This document shows, piece after piece, positions 9,338 to 30,331 of a stretch of DNA of 30,331 nt. Source of the DNA: a virus. Its lineage: Duplodnaviria; Caudoviricetes. A program made the translations under genes and the position numbers. The stretch spans positions 1 to 30,331 of the IMG/VR virus record IMGVR_UViG_3300030329_002035; one strand, written 5' to 3'. Every line of letters starts with the position of its first letter. Position 1 is the first letter of the stretch. Below the pieces are notes generated by a model. It was not told the origin of the DNA. It saw nothing but the letters and a program-made list of their open reading frames with translations, and ran no database searches.

Positions 9338-9732
9338 GTCTTATGGTAGGCACTGCTGGTGAACACTTTGTTTGCTTTGATTGTTTCTACAAGGGTCATA
9401 ATGCTACTATTGTTAATGGACAAATGCCTTACGATGTAGTTATAGCAGAGAATGGTTATGTTTATAAGGTTCAAGTTAAAACATCCAACACAACAACTAC
9501 TGATGGTCGTTCATTCCAATATGTATTAAAGTATACCAGAGAGATGGCTTTAAAAGGTGGATACAGAAGAAGGGATGTTGACTTGTTTGCTTTTGTTAAT
9601 CCAGAATTAAGGAAGGTGGCTTACATTCCATATGATAAAGTGGCTACAAACTGGAAGGTCACAATCCAAACTACAGACTATGACCTTCACTCTATTGATA
9701 CTGCTATTGATTATTTAAAGACTACTTTTTAA
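9334..9732 (+). CDS. PD-(D/E)xK endonuclease (homing-endonuclease-like)
   Basis: G.AGEH.V...PYDVV...KVQVKT...DLFAFV. Confidence 0.8.
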   Translation: MSLMVGTAGEHFVCFDCFYKGHNATIVNGQMPYDVVIAENGYVYKVQVKTSNTTTTDGRSFQYVLKYTREMALKGGYRRRDVDLFAFVNPELRKVAYIPYDKVATNWKVTIQTTDYDLHSIDTAIDYLKTTF

Positions 9733-10147
9733 ACCGAGATAAAGACTTTTGAATTTCTTTTTCAAAATTTAAAATAAGACCAAGAAAACCATCTAATAGG
9801 TCTTTTTCTTTTTCATCCTCATAATCCAATACATTATTAGCATCATTCCAGACATCTCTAAAATCAGAAACCACATCAAAGTAACCACCTATATCAGCTT
9901 TAATTTCTTTAAGGTCTTTGATTTGAATTAGATATTCCAAGCATCTAACTGCTACACCAGACATTGTTCTGTTACCATTCTCAATACCACAGATAATATC
10001 TTTTCTGGTATATCCTAAAGCATCAGCCATCTGTTGTTGGCTGTAGCCTAATTCCAAACGAACTTTTTTAAGAACAACTTGACCCATATGTTCAACATAA
10101 TTTTGTTCTTTTTCTTTTTCTAAAAACTCTGCATATTCTTTTGTCAT
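9722..10147 (-). CDS. XRE-family HTH protein
   Basis: LKKVRLELGYSQQQMADALGY...ICGIENGNR; AGGAG RBS. Confidence 0.8.
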   Translation of the reverse strand: MTKEYAEFLEKEKEQNYVEHMGQVVLKKVRLELGYSQQQMADALGYTRKDIICGIENGNRTMSGVAVRCLEYLIQIKDLKEIKADIGGYFDVVSDFRDVWNDANNVLDYEDEKEKDLLDGFLGLILNFEKEIQKSLSRFKK

Positions 10148-10452
10148 TACACATTCTCCTTAATTAATTTATTTAAAAAATACTTATTAACTTTATCTCC
10201 TTTATGAAGACTATCAGAACTACAACCATATTTTTTTACAAACTTTTCTTCATCCTCATTCCACCAAAGAATTGCTTTTTTCAACTCCATCATATGTCTT
10301 ATTTCCATTGCAATTAACTTTGCTTTTTGAACTGCTGGAGAATCAGTTTTTCCATCTACTACAATAGGTTTCATTGGTTTCTCCTTTATTATTTTTTTTA
10401 ATTTATTATTAACATTTTTATCATTTGCTATCATTCCTAATATATCCATCAC
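10147..10452 (-). CDS. Hypothetical early protein
   Basis: 101-aa ORF with AGGAGATTC RBS, immediately downstream of the hammerhead. Confidence 0.65.
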   Translation of the reverse strand: MMDILGMIANDKNVNNKLKKIIKEKPMKPIVVDGKTDSPAVQKAKLIAMEIRHMMELKKAILWWNEDEEKFVKKYGCSSDSLHKGDKVNKYFLNKLIKENV

Positions 10453-10465
10453 GAATCTCCTATTT

Positions 10466-10530
10466 TGGCTTTATCATCAGATGCAAGAGAGCCACTCTTA
10501 CATTATGCCTCTGGGTAGAGGCATTTCAAA
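10466..10530 (-). ncRNA. Hammerhead ribozyme, type II, with loop I pseudoknot
   Basis: UUU GAAA [UGCCUCU-ACCC-AGAGGCA] UA| [AUGUAAGAG-UGGCU-CUCUUGCAU] CUGAUGA UAA AGCCA. Full catalytic core, stems I and III, and loop UGGCU complementary to the 3' AGCCA. Confidence 0.88.
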
Positions 10531-10698
10531 TTACCATTTACTATTATCAGTTCTATAAGTAACCCATACACATATGATCATAAAAATCCAAATTAAGAAT
10601 AAAGGCATCCAATTTAAGCCTCTACACATATGATTTAACATTAAAATACTCCACAGAACTAAAGACACACTCATTGAAATAGTCATCATATATTTCAT
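10531..10698 (-). CDS. Small two-TM membrane protein (55 aa)
   Basis: Hand-translated MKYMMTISMSVSLVLWSILMLNHMCRGLNWMPLFLIWIFMIICVWVTYRTDNSKW; GGAGGT RBS and TAATG coupling. Confidence 0.7.
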   Translation of the reverse strand: MKYMMTISMSVSLVLWSILMLNHMCRGLNWMPLFLIWIFMIICVWVTYRTDNSKW

Positions 10699-11024
10699 TA
10701 TTTTACCTCCTCTACAAATCCATCAAACCAACCATCACCAGCAGTTGAAGGGTCTTGACAATGATTCTTTGCTTGTTCCAGAGTAAGACCAGTTAATATT
10801 GTTTTCTCTTCCAATCCCATTTGATAGAACCTAACTATTTTATATGAAGGCTCATCATTCTGAACTACATTATCTTTATTTATCAATTCCATACTTTTTC
10901 TAAAAGGTTCAAAGGAATTTATATTACAATCCTCACATAGACACTGGTCATCATCACCATAATAAGCCTCTTCAATATCTATATCAATCCTTCTTTCACA
11001 ATCTACACATTTAGTTATACTCAT
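10698..11024 (-). CDS. Modular early protein (Zn finger + VQNDEP + small domain)
   Basis: CVDC...CEDC, then VQNDEP, then YKIVRFY...TGLTLEQA..HC.DP...WFDGF; AGGAGATTC RBS. Confidence 0.7.
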   Translation of the reverse strand: MSITKCVDCERRIDIDIEEAYYGDDDQCLCEDCNINSFEPFRKSMELINKDNVVQNDEPSYKIVRFYQMGLEEKTILTGLTLEQAKNHCQDPSTAGDGWFDGFVEEVK

Positions 11025-11713
11025 TTGAATCTCCTTTTTATTTAATTAAAATTTAGTTGTTTATAAGACTTAACAAATGAATATAAACTATCTAATGATA
11101 TATATTCATAATCCCAATCTGACGATCTATTTTTTACTTTAACACTCCAATTATAAGTATCAAACCAACACTCATCATTTTCTCTACCATACCACTGACC
11201 TTCAACCTCTACAATCTTACCATAGAATTTAAAGATTATAAATAGGTCAGATTTAAAGTCATTTTTCTCTGCTCTATAATAATTATACCTCGCAGTTTTT
11301 AATGCCTCATATTCACCATAATTATTATGAAACATAGCCTCTACAACCTCTCTTACTATTCCAGTATTAGTATCTGGAATCACATCTATTTGTTTACTTG
11401 TTAACATTATCGAATCTCCTTATTTTTAAAATCTCTAACCATTTCAACATTATACATCTTTTCACATTTTGAACATTTCCATACCTCATAAGGAAAACAT
11501 TCACCTTCTTCTACCCATTCTAAATTATCATCATCATCGCAACATTTAGGCTCATCATTCTGAACTTTAGTTAAATCATCCTCATCAACCATATCAGAGA
11601 AAATAGAACAATCACCATTATATTCATATAAAGTTTGATTACCTTCATCATCTTCTCTATAGAATGTAATATCCCAAACTCCAATATTACCTTTAGGCTC
11701 ATCATTCTGAACT
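10848..11713 (-). repeat. Three identical 19-nt direct repeats AGTTCAGAATGATGAGCCT
   Basis: At 10848-10866, 11548-11566 and 11695-11713; the last two match over 22 nt. All are read in frame as VQNDEP. Confidence 0.9.
11042..11407 (-). CDS. Hypothetical early protein
   Basis: 121-aa ORF with AAGGAGATTC RBS. Confidence 0.7.
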   Translation of the reverse strand: MLTSKQIDVIPDTNTGIVREVVEAMFHNNYGEYEALKTARYNYYRAEKNDFKSDLFIIFKFYGKIVEVEGQWYGRENDECWFDTYNWSVKVKNRSSDWDYEYISLDSLYSFVKSYKQLNFN

Positions 11714-12393
11714 CCATCAAGATTAACTATAGTATCATTATACTCATCACCATAGTCAATTACTGCTTTATTATCTTTAGGCATATAATTTCCGATAGGA
11801 CTAACTCCCATTATATAGAAACAATCAGTATAATCAAGCATATTACAATCTTCAAATAAATCTCTATATTTCTCATCCATTTCAGCATCTACTGAAACTA
11901 ACTTATCTTTAGATATTGAATAGTGAAAGTAATCTTCAGAATTAGATGTTCTATCATACCAAGTGCTTAAAACCAAAATAGTATCTTCATCTATACGAAC
12001 ACCATTGTAAAATTGACCATCACCTTCATCTGCATTACATCCTTCTGCAACCATATCACAGAAATCTTTATCAATCTCCTCTACTTTGGTTATTTGTTTC
12101 TGAAGGTTATTAAGAACTACTGCTTTATCAAGTTTAGATAAGATAGATTTAAGGTTTTGATATTCTTTTTCAGAGGCTTGACAAGGGTATAATACAAACA
12201 CGCTATCTTTAAGTTTAATCATCTCATCATTTAAGAACTCTCTGAACTTATCTACATTTTCAATTTCAATCATATGACTCTTGTCTTCCATTCTAGTTTT
12301 AATCCACTTGAATCCTCGTGCTATAGATGATGTACCACAAATTGAAATTGTATTATATTCTGTATCTGTTAATTTTAAAGTTATTGTTTTCAT
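11407..12393 (-). CDS. Acidic modular early protein with two VQNDEP junctions
   Basis: ORF track 11407..12405; GGAGATTC precedes the ATG at 12393; C-terminal CC...CSKC module. Confidence 0.7.
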   Translation of the reverse strand: MKTITLKLTDTEYNTISICGTSSIARGFKWIKTRMEDKSHMIEIENVDKFREFLNDEMIKLKDSVFVLYPCQASEKEYQNLKSILSKLDKAVVLNNLQKQITKVEEIDKDFCDMVAEGCNADEGDGQFYNGVRIDEDTILVLSTWYDRTSNSEDYFHYSISKDKLVSVDAEMDEKYRDLFEDCNMLDYTDCFYIMGVSPIGNYMPKDNKAVIDYGDEYNDTIVNLDGVQNDEPKGNIGVWDITFYREDDEGNQTLYEYNGDCSIFSDMVDEDDLTKVQNDEPKCCDDDDNLEWVEEGECFPYEVWKCSKCEKMYNVEMVRDFKNKEIR

Positions 12394-12436
12394 TTGAATC
12401 TCCAATTTATTTATTTGTTTTGTCTAACTTGTAATT

Positions 12437-12564: not shown

Positions 12565-12807
12565 ATGATAGAATCAATCTATTTAATAGTGGGAGTATTA
12601 ATGGGAGTTATTATTACTATTGTAGGTACAAAACTGGGTTCAAATACTTATAAGAATGCAGTTAGTGACATTACACAGCCACCTCAATTCAGCGATGAAG
12701 ATAGAACTGCTGATACACCTCCAGACTATGAAACATCCTATAACTATGATAACTACAAAGACTACATAGAGTCACTAGATGATGAGAAAACAGAGGATAT
12801 AAACTAA
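12565..12807 (+). CDS. Single-TM membrane protein
   Basis: IYLIVGVLMGVIITIVG followed by an acidic tail. Confidence 0.6.
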   Translation: MIESIYLIVGVLMGVIITIVGTKLGSNTYKNAVSDITQPPQFSDEDRTADTPPDYETSYNYDNYKDYIESLDDEKTEDIN

Positions 12808-17844: not shown

Positions 17845-17886
17845 ATTTTTGATTAAATAAGAGCAACTCAATAAGGAGACTCTGAA

Positions 17887-27214: not shown

Positions 27215-30200
27215 TGTCTAGCCCAACTTTTAATATATCATCAAGGGCAGTTGACCACTGGAAAGACCCAGACAATATTGCTAAATATGAAGAACTTTTA
27301 AACAATCTTCCTACATTAGAAGATTATGAAAAAATGCCAGTTCAAGAACAAACTAAATTATTTGAATTGTATACAAATGCAATTGACTATAGAACAAAAA
27401 CAGACCCAGAATTTAAATTATGGATGGAAGATTTTGATCCTTCATATGCTACTGATGAAAAAGATGATGATTTAAAAAATGAATTTACATTTAAAGACGA
27501 GGTAAATAAATATCTAACAGATTCCAAGACTGAATATAATTTAAAATATGGCAAGGATGGTATTAAATTTGATGGTGTACCCGGATTAAAATTTGAAACA
27601 GAATATCAAGATAATACATCTGTAGATTTAATTAGTAATTCAGAATCACTAAACTACACCTATCAAATCCAAGAGGATGGCTCAATAAAAAAAGTATATA
27701 AAGACGAAGATGGAGGCCTCCTTGAAAACGAGTGGAAAAATCTAAACTTACCGGGTGTTCTTGAAAGAGATTGGGTTAGAGGAGTTCCTAAAACAGTTTT
27801 AGAGATTTTTGAATGGATGACATCTGGATATATTACAGCTCCAGAAGGAACTTTTATAGGAGACCCATTTGGGGATGTCGGTTTATCAGAAGATTTCCAA
27901 TCAGCTCGTGATTACTGGAATAAAACTCATATGGTAAAATGGGGTAGTCATTTTGAAGGAGCTTTTCACGATGAAGCTATTGAAGATTTTTTTAGTATGA
28001 TGAGAAAAAAAGGGATTCCTATATATGAAGAGGATGGGTATGGAATAGAACTTGGTGCAAATTTTACAGTTTTATATCGTAAAAACCCAGAAGAATTAAA
28101 ACAAATTTTAGAAGATTCAAGTATAATATCTGTATTGGAAGATGCTCAAGAATTTGTTATGAAAAATCCTATTACTGTTGATAGTTGGGAAGACATCAAG
28201 CCTACTTATATAAATACAATTGTAGGAGCTATTCCAGATTTAGCAATACAGATTGGAGCATCATACTCGAATCCAGTATATGGAATGATGTATGCTGGTA
28301 TGATTACTGGATCAGATTCTTATCAAACAGCAAAGCCTTATATAGAAAAGGGAAATTTAACCGTAAATGAAGCTCACGAACTTTCTGTGTTGGTAGCATC
28401 AGCAAGTTTGCTATGGAATTATGGGCCAAGCAAATTATACAGTAATGCCTTTAAGCAATCAGCTAAAGATGAGTTTGAAAAAAGATTATTTGATAAAATA
28501 TTTCAAAAAGGGTTGCATAAAAAAATCAGTATGGAAACTTTAAAAAGTGGTCTTGTAGAGGCGATTCAAGAGACTGGAGATGAAGTTACCAATTTGTATG
28601 CAGAATCTACTTATAGAGATGACTTGACTTGGGCCGAAGGTGAACAGAGAATTAAATTGTCTGCTGTTTCTGGTTTTGTTTTGGGTTCTGGTGCTAATAT
28701 AACATTGAATCATTTAAATCAAAAACAAAAAACGGCATATTATAAAGAGTTAGTCGAAACAGAAAAGTTTTTGTTACCTAAAAATTTATCTATTGATGAC
28801 AATGGTATATTAACAGTTGATTTAGATAAAAATAATTTTGAATCAGATGAACAATATGAGCAAGTTAAAACTAGGTATGACAGCATTGTTAAAAATATAG
28901 ATATAGAAAAGTTAAGGAAAGAATATCCCAACACACCTTTAAACTTACTAGTATTTAATCATTTATTTAATAATAATCCTTTATTTGAAAATGATGATAT
29001 AGAATATGATGCACCACTGATAACACAGATAATGACAGCTGAACAACTTATAAGGGCAAATTATGACCCAGATAATTTAAAATGGAAAAAAGTAGAAATA
29101 AAAGAGGGGGATGAAAATTATGTCGAAGGAGAAAGAAGGTTCAAAGTATGGACACTCGGGTCGAACATATATGATGATACCGGAGGGAGAATCATACTCA
29201 CTGAAGGAGCAACTCAAGATGTCTTTGTTGAAGAGATGGTCGAACTCACATATAAACGGCTTGAAACAGAAAATCCGGAACTTAAACAGCGAATAGATAG
29301 ATGGATTTCTCAAACCGAGAAAATTTTAAATGGCAAAGGGCCAACTGGTATAGAGCTGTTTTCAAAATTCTATACATTTAATTATTTAGGATATGCTGAT
29401 ACAGAGTTTGATTTAGGTGAAATAACGATGATGCCTAAAGATATACTAGATGGTATGGATAATATAATAGGTCAACAATCAGATGGATCAAACCTATCAT
29501 TTTTATTTAATGGGGATATAGAAAAAACTCTAAAACTAAATGTAGACGAACAAGTAGATGAAACTGTAGAGCCTATAGAAGAAACTACAGAAGAAATTGT
29601 AGAACCTATAGAAGAGGTTATAGAAGAACCTATAGAAACTAAAGATGTTGAAGAAGGTGAAACTTTTAGACTTACACCACAACAAGAAGAGTTCTTTAAG
29701 GATTCTAAAGTAAGAGATGATAATGGTGAATTAATAAAAGTATATCACGGAACAACAGAAGATTTTGATAATTTTGATAGGGGTGGTTGGTTTGCAATAT
29801 CTCCAGAAATTTCAAATATATATACTCGTTTCGACATAGAAGGTGAATCAGATTTATTAAAACCAAAAAGTTTCCCAGCATATATTAACCTTAAAAACCC
29901 TCTTAATTTTAATGAAGCCTTTGATGATGGAAGCAATTTTACAACTTGGGAGGAGTTTTCAGATTTTCTTGAAAGCAAAACTGGGGAAAAACCTCCAAAA
30001 CCATCAGAAGCCGAGTATATAGATGAAAATAGTGCATTGTGGGAATATACAAATTTAATAACAGATTTTCGAAGTGGTTATCCACCATTAAGAGATTGGA
30101 TTATGAGTTTTGGTTATGATGGGTTAGTAATGAATGAAGGTGATAAAACTTATTATGCATTTAAACCAGAACAAGTTAAATCTCAATTCAATCCAGAGCC

Positions 30201-30331
30201 TACAAGTGACCCAAGAATGTCATTTAGACTTACACCACAACAAGAAGAGTTCTTTAAAGACTCTAAAGTAAGAGATTCTGGTGGAAATCCATATGCAGAA
30301 ATGTTAGGTTTAGAAAAAAATTATCTATTAA
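27214..30331 (+). CDS. N-terminal part of giant ejection / polyvalent protein (3'-truncated) with ADP-ribosyltransferase-like domain
   Basis: Missing from the ORF track because it has no stop. TAATG start MSSPTFNISS..., read open to the window end. Contains VYHGT..DFDNF..GGWF..SP...PAYINLKNP...GYDG...YYAFKPEQVKS. Confidence 0.8.
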   Translation, partial: MSSPTFNISSRAVDHWKDPDNIAKYEELLNNLPTLEDYEKMPVQEQTKLFELYTNAIDYRTKTDPEFKLWMEDFDPSYATDEKDDDLKNEFTFKDEVNKYLTDSKTEYNLKYGKDGIKFDGVPGLKFETEYQDNTSVDLISNSESLNYTYQIQEDGSIKKVYKDEDGGLLENEWKNLNLPGVLERDWVRGVPKTVLEIFEWMTSGYITAPEGTFIGDPFGDVGLSEDFQSARDYWNKTHMVKWGSHFEGAFHDEAIEDFFSMMRKKGIPIYEEDGYGIELGANFTVLYRKNPEELKQILEDSSIISVLEDAQEFVMKNPITVDSWEDIKPTYINTIVGAIPDLAIQIGASYSNPVYGMMYAGMITGSDSYQTAKPYIEKGNLTVNEAHELSVLVASASLLWNYGPSKLYSNAFKQSAKDEFEKRLFDKIFQKGLHKKISMETLKSGLVEAIQETGDEVTNLYAESTYRDDLTWAEGEQRIKLSAVSGFVLGSGANITLNHLNQKQKTAYYKELVETEKFLLPKNLSIDDNGILTVDLDKNNFESDEQYEQVKTRYDSIVKNIDIEKLRKEYPNTPLNLLVFNHLFNNNPLFENDDIEYDAPLITQIMTAEQLIRANYDPDNLKWKKVEIKEGDENYVEGERRFKVWTLGSNIYDDTGGRIILTEGATQDVFVEEMVELTYKRLETENPELKQRIDRWISQTEKILNGKGPTGIELFSKFYTFNYLGYADTEFDLGEITMMPKDILDGMDNIIGQQSDGSNLSFLFNGDIEKTLKLNVDEQVDETVEPIEETTEEIVEPIEEVIEEPIETKDVEEGETFRLTPQQEEFFKDSKVRDDNGELIKVYHGTTEDFDNFDRGGWFAISPEISNIYTRFDIEGESDLLKPKSFPAYINLKNPLNFNEAFDDGSNFTTWEEFSDFLESKTGEKPPKPSEAEYIDENSALWEYTNLITDFRSGYPPLRDWIMSFGYDGLVMNEGDKTYYAFKPEQVKSQFNPEPTSDPRMSFRLTPQQEEFFKDSKVRDSGGNPYAEMLGLEKNYLL
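29665..30276 (+). repeat. 54-nt in-frame direct repeat pair
   Basis: 29665-29718 and 30223-30276, 52/54 identical, both encoding FRLTPQQEEFFKDSKVRD. Confidence 0.92.

What the first reader, a model, noticed from the sequence alone, without database searches (positions are those of the whole stretch)
10453..10530. Type II hammerhead ribozyme splitting the leftward early operon
Seen: intact core (CUGAUGA, GAAA, AUA cleavage triplet), a 9-bp stem I, a 7-bp stem III, and a 5-bp pseudoknot (loop UGGCU with AGCCA). It fills the space between a stop codon and the next RBS. The predicted cut is between 10504 and 10503. Stem II is minimal and atypical (extra U, then AAA/UUU instead of the usual G-C). 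Established: hammerheads occur in phage intergenic regions, with mostly unknown function. Inference: cleavage releases a 5'-OH mRNA for the 101-aa gene and the XRE regulator, changing its stability relative to upstream genes.
Basis: partly seen in the sequence, partly recalled or inferred. Interest (0 to 1): 0.85.

Follow-up and report, generated by a model that had tools for sequence, protein, structure and literature searches.

The report
Phage hammerhead ribozyme, A/U-only stem II
A small RNA motif with the full layout of a type II hammerhead ribozyme fills the gap between two small genes of an uncultured marine phage and likely cuts their shared message in two; such elements have been known in phages since 2011, and this one differs only in an unusually weak stem II that makes the standard Rfam search miss it.

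Summary
On the minus strand, 10530-10466 holds an intact hammerhead core, stem III, an AUA triplet, a 9-bp stem I and a loop-I/tail pseudoknot. None of 60 shuffled windows gives this. Rfam misses it. Two models built from unrelated phage type II hammerheads find it as the only clear hit (54 and 32 bits). Four distinct versions in related phage sequences are more conserved than the adjacent gene, and their changes keep the fold.

One correction: stem II more likely opens with a U10.1-U11.1 mismatch than with a bulged U; Perreault 2011 already reported this variant.

Most likely it cuts the cassette transcript into separate messages, as proposed in 2011. Cleavage and expression are untested. The scan has found this class before on other DNA. 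Side result: 40 of 55 comparator hammerheads start 2-6 nt after a stop codon. Ordinary; interest 0.25.

The parts
10531..10698 (-). Upstream 55-aa hydrophobic ORF; its stop codon (10533-10531) ends 3 nt before G12
   Evidence: same gene upstream in window, L123, L249, L260; no family hit, 4 close homologues
10528..10530 (-). Stem II 5' strand, UUU (U11.1 = 10528)
   Evidence: kept in 4 of 4 versions
10524..10527 (-). Core G12 A13 A14 A15.1
   Evidence: invariant in 4 of 4
10505..10523 (-). Stem III hairpin: 7 bp (10523-10517 / 10512-10506), loop 10516-10513, U16.1 = 10505
   Evidence: pair probabilities 0.87-1.0; C-G to U-A change on both sides in L249; loop differs in L249 and L260
10503..10504 (-). 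Predicted cleavage site, between A17 (10504) and A1.1 (10503)
   Evidence: position follows from the core consensus (PMC3088659 methods); cleavage not tested
10481..10503 (-). Stem I hairpin, 9 bp, with loop UGGCU (10494-10490)
   Evidence: invariant in 4 of 4
10474..10480 (-). Core C3 U4 G5 A6 U7 G8 A9
   Evidence: the only core change seen is U7 to C, the free position (L260; run X4)
10470..10473 (-). Stem II 3' strand: likely U10.1 (10473) opposite U11.1, then one or two A-U pairs and a linker A; alternative is a bulged U plus A-U pairs
10466..10470 (-). Pseudoknot strand (A)GCCA, complementary to loop I; 4 bp, or 5 with A10470
   Evidence: terminal U-A is U-G in L123
10457..10461 (-). Shine-Dalgarno AGGAG, 4 nt after the pseudoknot, 42 nt after the cut
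   Evidence: 41-45 nt in the four versions
10147..10452 (-). Downstream 101-aa ORF (the gene at this position differs between strains)
9722..10147 (-). XRE-like HTH gene, last of the leftward cassette
   Evidence: weak PHROG hits; Pfam HTH_3 just below its cut-off

Best explanation
This is a type II hammerhead ribozyme motif that likely cuts the leftward cassette transcript once, between 10504 and 10503, into an upstream and a downstream message. Shown: core, stems, pseudoknot complement, position between a stop codon and a Shine-Dalgarno site, and fold-preserving conservation. From established hammerhead chemistry (PMC11300833 introduction): G12 as general base and the G8 2'-OH as general acid give a 2',3'-cyclic phosphate and a 5'-OH. 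Inferred: the loop-I/tail pseudoknot compensates for the A/U-only stem II and holds stems I and II in the active position. Also inferred: each product keeps a terminal hairpin (stem III at the new 3' end of the 55-aa gene message; stem I from the first nucleotide of the 5'-OH product, 42 nt before the Shine-Dalgarno site), so the two halves would decay independently. It acts as a portable punctuation mark for whichever gene sits behind it, not as a regulator of one gene, and it is dispensable in some lineages.
For: 0 hits in 60 shuffles. Only clear hit with model R1 (54.2 bits; next best 10) and with R2, trained without the sequences picked by this element's own stem III letters (32 bits, E 7e-8). 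The ribozyme is more conserved than the adjacent coding gene: 64/64 vs 142/165 nt in L123, 60/64 vs 127/165 in L249, 59/64 vs 138/165 in L260. 92 of 92 pair cells are standard pairs, with one two-sided and one one-sided change. Changes fall in loop III, N7 and the flanks. Further contigs show a one-pair insertion in both arms of stem III and a U-G intermediate (read by hand). Context matches the class: 40 of 55 comparators begin 2-6 nt after a stop codon and 42 of 55 have a Shine-Dalgarno-led ORF within 70 nt. PMC3088659 reports one- and two-pair stems II, a U10.1-U11.1 opening, pseudoknot dependence, and cleavage of phage polycistronic RNAs in vitro and in E. coli. AUA occurs in active natural hammerheads (PMC1636495).
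Against: No cleavage or transcript evidence: the one RNA run laid has two contigs in the cassette, both in the XRE gene and none on the element. All 55 comparators have G10.1-C11.1; none has an A/U-only stem II. AUA is the slowest of four triplets post-transcriptionally. Stem II is not predicted to form without the pseudoknot (probability 0). Rfam RF02276 gives no hit. Covariation is thin: 4 sequences, 118 of 500 shuffles reach the observed score, and stems I and II never vary. L249 and L260 were fetched with a pattern fixing 23 positions of the element, so only L123 is an unbiased homologue. In the window's own 241-nt naked-RNA context, stem I is only 56% formed. PMC3088659 found 4 of 18 consensus hammerheads inactive.
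Confidence: 0.68

Rival explanations
1. Slow, translation-gated ribozyme. A ribosome terminating on the stop codon 3 nt before G12 would cover the UUU strand and GAAA (ribosome footprint recalled, not tested). With so weak a stem II, cutting would happen mainly when the 55-aa gene is not being translated, coupling downstream mRNA processing to upstream translation.
For: The stop ends 3 nt before G12 in the window and L260, and in L123 by alignment. Among comparators 40 of 55 lie at 2-6 nt (19 of 29 counting one per locus), against 105 of 1014 random GAAA sites and 149 of 519 such sites that have a stop within 60 nt. The upstream gene is the constant partner.
Against: Compact genomes give the same spacing with no regulation, because a type II hammerhead begins with stem II. 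L249 has 8 nt. Ribosomes dwell briefly at stops, and one free moment suffices for an irreversible cut. Comparators are clustered (11 from L188) and are not a random sample.
Confidence: 0.12
2. Inactive or nearly inactive relic, kept as a double hairpin that blocks exonucleases or pauses polymerase; no cleavage needed.
For: A/U-only stem II (0 of 55 comparators), AUA triplet, no Rfam hit. Both hairpins are stable on their own. An earlier scan note describes plain hairpins replacing hammerheads (e1-10021045, unchecked).
Against: The single-stranded core is invariant except at N7, while loop III and the neighbouring gene vary. The pseudoknot pair is kept through a U-A to U-G change. No U-tract follows the hairpins, and the terminator scan does not list them.
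Confidence: 0.1
3. Active but selectively near-neutral passenger that travels with the 55-aa gene when cassette modules are exchanged at the shared ribosome-binding-site boxes.
For: Absent from 4 of 5 relatives' whole records. One contig in run X3 joins the same upstream gene straight to a Shine-Dalgarno site and the same kind of downstream gene, without the element (27 nt on the shorter side). Cassette genes are shuffled at GGAGATTC boxes.
Against: It is more conserved than the protein gene it travels with, which neutral hitch-hiking does not predict.
Confidence: 0.07
4. DNA-level element: a sigma-70-like promoter (TTGAAA-16-CATAAT, 10529-10502) with palindromic operator sites, for instance for the XRE protein.
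For: 10 of 12 consensus match overlapping the element; an XRE-like gene lies downstream.
Against: 24 such sites found against 25.2 expected from shuffles. In L249 the two hexamers are 23 nt apart while the hairpin is kept. G-U pairs work only on the minus-strand RNA. It does not explain CUGAUGA or the pseudoknot complement.
Confidence: 0.03

Closest known systems
Type II hammerhead ribozymes with loop I / 3'-tail pseudoknot in phage and prophage intergenic regions (Perreault et al. 2011, PMC3088659; Rfam RF02276)
   Same: Permutation (stems I and III closed, stem II open), full core, short stem II, 4-5 bp pseudoknot, position between small phage genes. Rfam-positive comparators L204, L190, L202 and L215 have closely similar stem I, loop and tail geometry.
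   Different: Stem II has no G-C pair and likely opens with U-U; all 55 comparators have G10.1-C11.1. No RF02276 hit. Single copy in the genome record, not a cluster.
Natural U10.1-U11.1 hammerhead variant (PMC3088659, Fig. 5 and S6)
   Same: Same mismatch at the base of stem II in the preferred register.
   Different: I saw only the main text and a garbled text extraction of Fig. S6, not the figure, so I cannot say whether that example also lacks G-C pairs or is type II. My six search strings were not found in the 11 readable supplements, but gapped alignments would hide them.
Hammerheads with an extra nucleotide between A9 and G10.1 (CChMVd plus strand; passages in PMC3705267 and PMC1636495)
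   Same: 10 of 55 phage comparators have an extra U.
   Different: Those keep G10.1-C11.1, and 9 of the 10 comparators have the linker A one position later than this element.
Pseudoknot-containing (PK) hammerhead (Zhan et al. 2024, PMC11300833)
   Same: Hammerhead core, pseudoknot, greatly reduced conventional helix II.
   Different: There the pseudoknot replaces helix II and an extra helix IV is present; here the pseudoknot joins loop I to the tail behind an open stem II, with no helix IV.

Membership tests
Hammerhead ribozyme (structural class) | Core C3 U4 G5 A6 N7 G8 A9, G12 A13 A14 A15.1, U16.1, H17 | tested here: met
   criteria from PMC3088659 methods
Hammerhead ribozyme (structural class) | Stems I and III paired up to the core (1.1-2.1, 15.1-16.1) | tested here: met
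Hammerhead ribozyme (structural class) | Stem II closing the three-way junction (10.1-11.1 paired; U-U is a published exception) | tested here: inconclusive
   Either U-U then 1-2 A-U pairs, or a bulged U then 2-3 A-U pairs; the models align U-U. It would fail Perreault's automatic filter and need an activity test; U-U is reported there as natural.
Hammerhead ribozyme (structural class) | Site-specific self-cleavage giving a 2',3'-cyclic phosphate and a 5'-OH | not testable with these tools
   No raw RNA reads available; only contigs, none from RNA over the element
Type II hammerhead with pseudoknot | Stem II open, stems I and III hairpin-closed | tested here: met
Type II hammerhead with pseudoknot | At least 4 bp complementarity between loop I and the tail directly after stem II | tested here: met
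   (kept in 4 of 4; one U-A to U-G change, no two-sided change)
Rfam RF02276 Hammerhead_II | Score at or above the gathering threshold (37 bits) | tested here: not met
   No hit at E<=1, at E<=10 on 241 nt or; L123, L249, L260 also missed while 9 comparator hits passed. Filters were on, so no bit score was obtained. Not filed as an RF02276 member.
PK hammerhead (PMC11300833) | Helix II replaced by a pseudoknot formed from an extra stem-loop (helix IV) | tested here: not met
   No helix IV in the layout compared with the description

The most novel reading that the evidence does not exclude
Phage type II hammerheads are translation-gated switches: they abut the upstream stop codon so that terminating ribosomes block core assembly, and this lineage has tuned the gate by losing every G-C pair in stem II, making cleavage depend on the pseudoknot, on low temperature and on the translation state of the 55-aa membrane-peptide gene.
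Probability: 0.12. Interest if true: 0.6.

Novelty: new member of a known kind. Interest (0 to 1): 0.25.

Why it matters
As it stands it adds one weak-stem-II lineage that Rfam misses, so Rfam-based counts of phage hammerheads are probably low. Why phages carry these ribozymes is still open (PMC6765202). The natural with/without pair between the same two genes and the swapped downstream genes suggest a clean reporter test, but the phage is uncultured and its host unknown, so the question is no more testable here than in cultured phages. The stop-codon spacing across comparators is the part most worth following up.

Tried and rejected
Rfam scans of the window gave no hammerhead hit; weak Bacteroides-1, HYMAI and S15 matches (E 2.4-5.7) are chance. 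blastn against GenBank phages: no record covers the element. The 101-aa protein found no related viral loci. The tightest pattern found nothing in viral contigs. Looser patterns gave mostly chance matches; after filtering only the L123 contig remained. L099 passed the descriptor with 5/5 pairs but has long irregular loops and was fetched by a pattern that forced its stem II letters; I dropped it from the 55 comparators as probable chance. Host: terminase relatives in genome contigs were only 37% identical, on short contigs of two unrelated MAGs, so no host is assigned. A whole-record search with R2 missed the positive control G001 and was discarded; R1 found it. The loose core pattern was uninformative. 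Ribosome-binding-site switch: upstream sequence hides the Shine-Dalgarno site in the window's naked-RNA fold (unpaired probability 0.20 vs 0.68 after the cut) but not in L123, L249 or L260, so it is rejected. ESM Atlas for the 55-aa protein: best score 0.87, unnamed clusters only. RNA run X19 does not cover the element; this says nothing about expression. Runs with a small share of words that I did not lay are not used. L287 and L288 were fetched but not analysed. Paper searches for stop-codon-coupled phage hammerheads found no direct treatment, and 'stop codon' does not occur in PMC3088659's main text; the library lacks most subscription papers, so this does not show it is unpublished.

Full report
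Setting. The window is a whole linear virus record of 30,331 nt, estimated 88% complete. The two runs that hold nearly all of the region are marine metagenomes and may be its source. It is a tailed phage. Rightward recombination and replication genes (Sak, exonuclease, initiator, NinG) run up to 9732, and rightward packaging and head genes (terminase, portal, major head) start at 12565. Between them lies a leftward cassette of six ORFs (12405-9722), five without a family hit and an XRE-like gene last. The finding is the 78-nt gap between the 55-aa ORF and the 101-aa ORF.

Observation. A descriptor for GAAA - hairpin - UH - hairpin - CUGANGA found two sites in the window at its loosest setting: a 2/3-pair chance site at 17884 and this one with 7/9 pairs. 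Sixty shuffles gave 0.63 loose hits each and none with at least 4/5 pairs. The minus strand folds into the two hairpins (z -3.11) and the plus strand is unremarkable (z -1.30). Rfam reports nothing relevant, even at E<=10 on 241 nt.

Independent profile test. A pattern scan of viral contigs and a descriptor run over all 284 loci then held plus the window (1.3 Mb) gave 60 distinct strict hits. Four belong to this element's family, one (L099) was dropped as probable chance, and 55 from 29 loci served as comparators. Four of six comparator loci tested carry Rfam Hammerhead_II hits (9 hits). Model R1 (25 comparators) scores the element 54.2 bits, next best 10. Many R1 sequences were fetched with this element's own stem III letters, so I built R2 from 22 comparators that lack those letters. 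It gives a single hit, 32 bits, E 7e-8. E-values from these models are rough.

Stem II. All 55 comparators have G10.1-C11.1, 45 directly after A9 and 10 after an extra U. In 33 of the 45 an A stands at the fourth tail position; in 9 of the 10 extra-U cases it stands at the fifth. This element has A fourth and G fifth, as 28 of the 45 do. U10473 therefore likely occupies position 10.1 opposite U10528, and both models align it so. Nearest-neighbour energies slightly favour the bulged form (-17.8 vs -16.6 kcal/mol, pseudoknot not counted), so the register is not settled. Both oddities have precedent. PMC3088659 (I read main-text parts 1-5 of 8, the supporting-information legends, a text extraction of Fig. 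S6 and a string search of the supplements) reports stems II of two and even one pair, a U10.1-U11.1 opening, and strong dependence on the pseudoknot. PMC3705267 and PMC1636495 (passages only) describe an extra nucleotide after A9 and natural AUA triplets. The figures and one .doc supplement could not be seen and may bear on whether an all-A/U stem II was already shown.

Relatives. Of 28 terminase-related loci, one (L123, 85% terminase identity) carries the element; many do not reach the cassette. A metagenome pattern scan gave 13 matches, four real. L252 is identical to the window and L261 to L123, leaving four distinct versions: window, L123, L249, L260. The element is more conserved than the adjacent gene in all three comparisons (64/64, 60/64, 59/64 against 142/165, 127/165, 138/165). 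All 92 pair cells are standard pairs, with one two-sided change in stem III and one wobble change in the pseudoknot. With four rows this does not beat the shuffle control (118 of 500), and L249 and L260 were selected on 23 fixed positions. Contigs from four runs add a version with one extra pair in both arms of stem III, a U-G intermediate, a U7-to-C change, and one version whose third stem II base is C (its tail was not printed) (read by hand).

Context in relatives. The upstream 55-aa gene is the same in all four versions. The downstream gene is the 101-aa type in the window and L260, a different gene in L123, and another in L249. Loose ends show two more, each behind an AGGAG. The cut-to-Shine-Dalgarno distance stays 41-45 nt. 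The cassette is shuffled at recurring GGAGATTC boxes. Model R1 finds the element in 1 of 5 whole records, and in neither of the two other near-complete ones. One contig in run X3 has the same upstream gene and downstream gene type with only a ribosome-binding spacer between them (a single contig, 27 nt on the short side). The element is thus accessory, tied to the upstream gene, and not specific for the 101-aa gene.

Mechanism. The best reading is one self-cleavage event that punctuates a polycistronic cassette transcript. The chemistry is established for the class (PMC11300833, part 1 read). Folding predicts that the 5' product ends in the stem III hairpin and the 3' product starts with stem I at its first nucleotide. 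A 5'-OH slows end-dependent decay (one sentence in bioRxiv 2020.07.22.216051, passages read), though which nucleases the unknown host has is open. PMC3088659 proposed and partly showed such processing for phage hammerheads, and PMC6765202 (passages) states that its purpose remains undefined. No direct evidence of transcription or cleavage was obtained: all runs offered were contigs, and the one RNA run does not touch the element. 'Early' is an inference from small genes with strong Shine-Dalgarno sites.

Side result. In 40 of 55 comparators an ORF of at least 40 codons ends 2-6 nt before G12 (19 of 29 counting one per locus). The controls are 105 of 1014 random GAAA sites, and 149 of 519 such sites that have a stop within 60 nt. 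This element sits at the mode (3 nt). Genome compaction explains this most simply; gating by terminating ribosomes is the bolder reading. Four paper searches found no treatment of it. An earlier scan note (e1-10014305) mentions one type II hammerhead fused to a stop codon.

Verdict. A real, conserved type II hammerhead motif and a new member of a kind described in 2011. It has a rare weak stem II of a type already reported, and it does not pass the Rfam RF02276 threshold. The scan holds 25 notes matching similar search words, none in this genome or its look-alikes. Interest 0.25; the translation-gated reading has probability 0.12 and would deserve 0.6.

Noticed in passing
window 9722-12405 (-); L123, L130, L133, L139, L249, L260: The leftward cassette is hypervariable between fixed flanks (a PD-(D/E)XK-like 132-aa gene and an 80-aa gene before the small terminase). 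Genes and gene halves are swapped at recurring GGAGATTC ribosome-binding boxes (10460, 11034, 11419, 12403); L139 has a single gene there.
   Followed up: partly
window 10842-10866, 11542-11566, 11689-11713: Three copies of a 25-nt repeat inside the 108-aa and 332-aa ORFs (encoding a QNDEP peptide); several contig joints fall near 10845, so it may be another module junction.
   Followed up: no
window 10385-10147 (-): The 101-aa ORF contains an internal AGGAG at 10385 followed by an in-frame ATG. Relatives share only its first ~25 codons and then diverge at this box, so it may be a short leader module fused to a separately initiated gene.
   Followed up: partly
window 12466-12437 (-): A TTGCAT box upstream of the cassette is shared with L123 and L130 (TTGGAT in L249), with an AT-rich hexamer about 17-18 nt downstream; a possible cassette promoter, below the scanner's threshold.
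   Followed up: partly
L188:116-4919 (+): A viral contig with at least 11 distinct type II hammerheads (13 sites) within 5 kb, one per intergenic gap; L202 has 6 by my strict descriptor, and L190 has 4 plus two further Rfam hits.
   Followed up: partly
55 comparator hammerheads, loci within L150-L227: The stop codon of the upstream ORF ends 2-6 nt before G12 in 40 of 55, often overlapping the 5' strand of stem II.
   Followed up: partly
window 27215-30331: The last 3 kb hold no ORF longer than 78 aa under table 11, unlike the densely coded rest of the genome.
   Followed up: no
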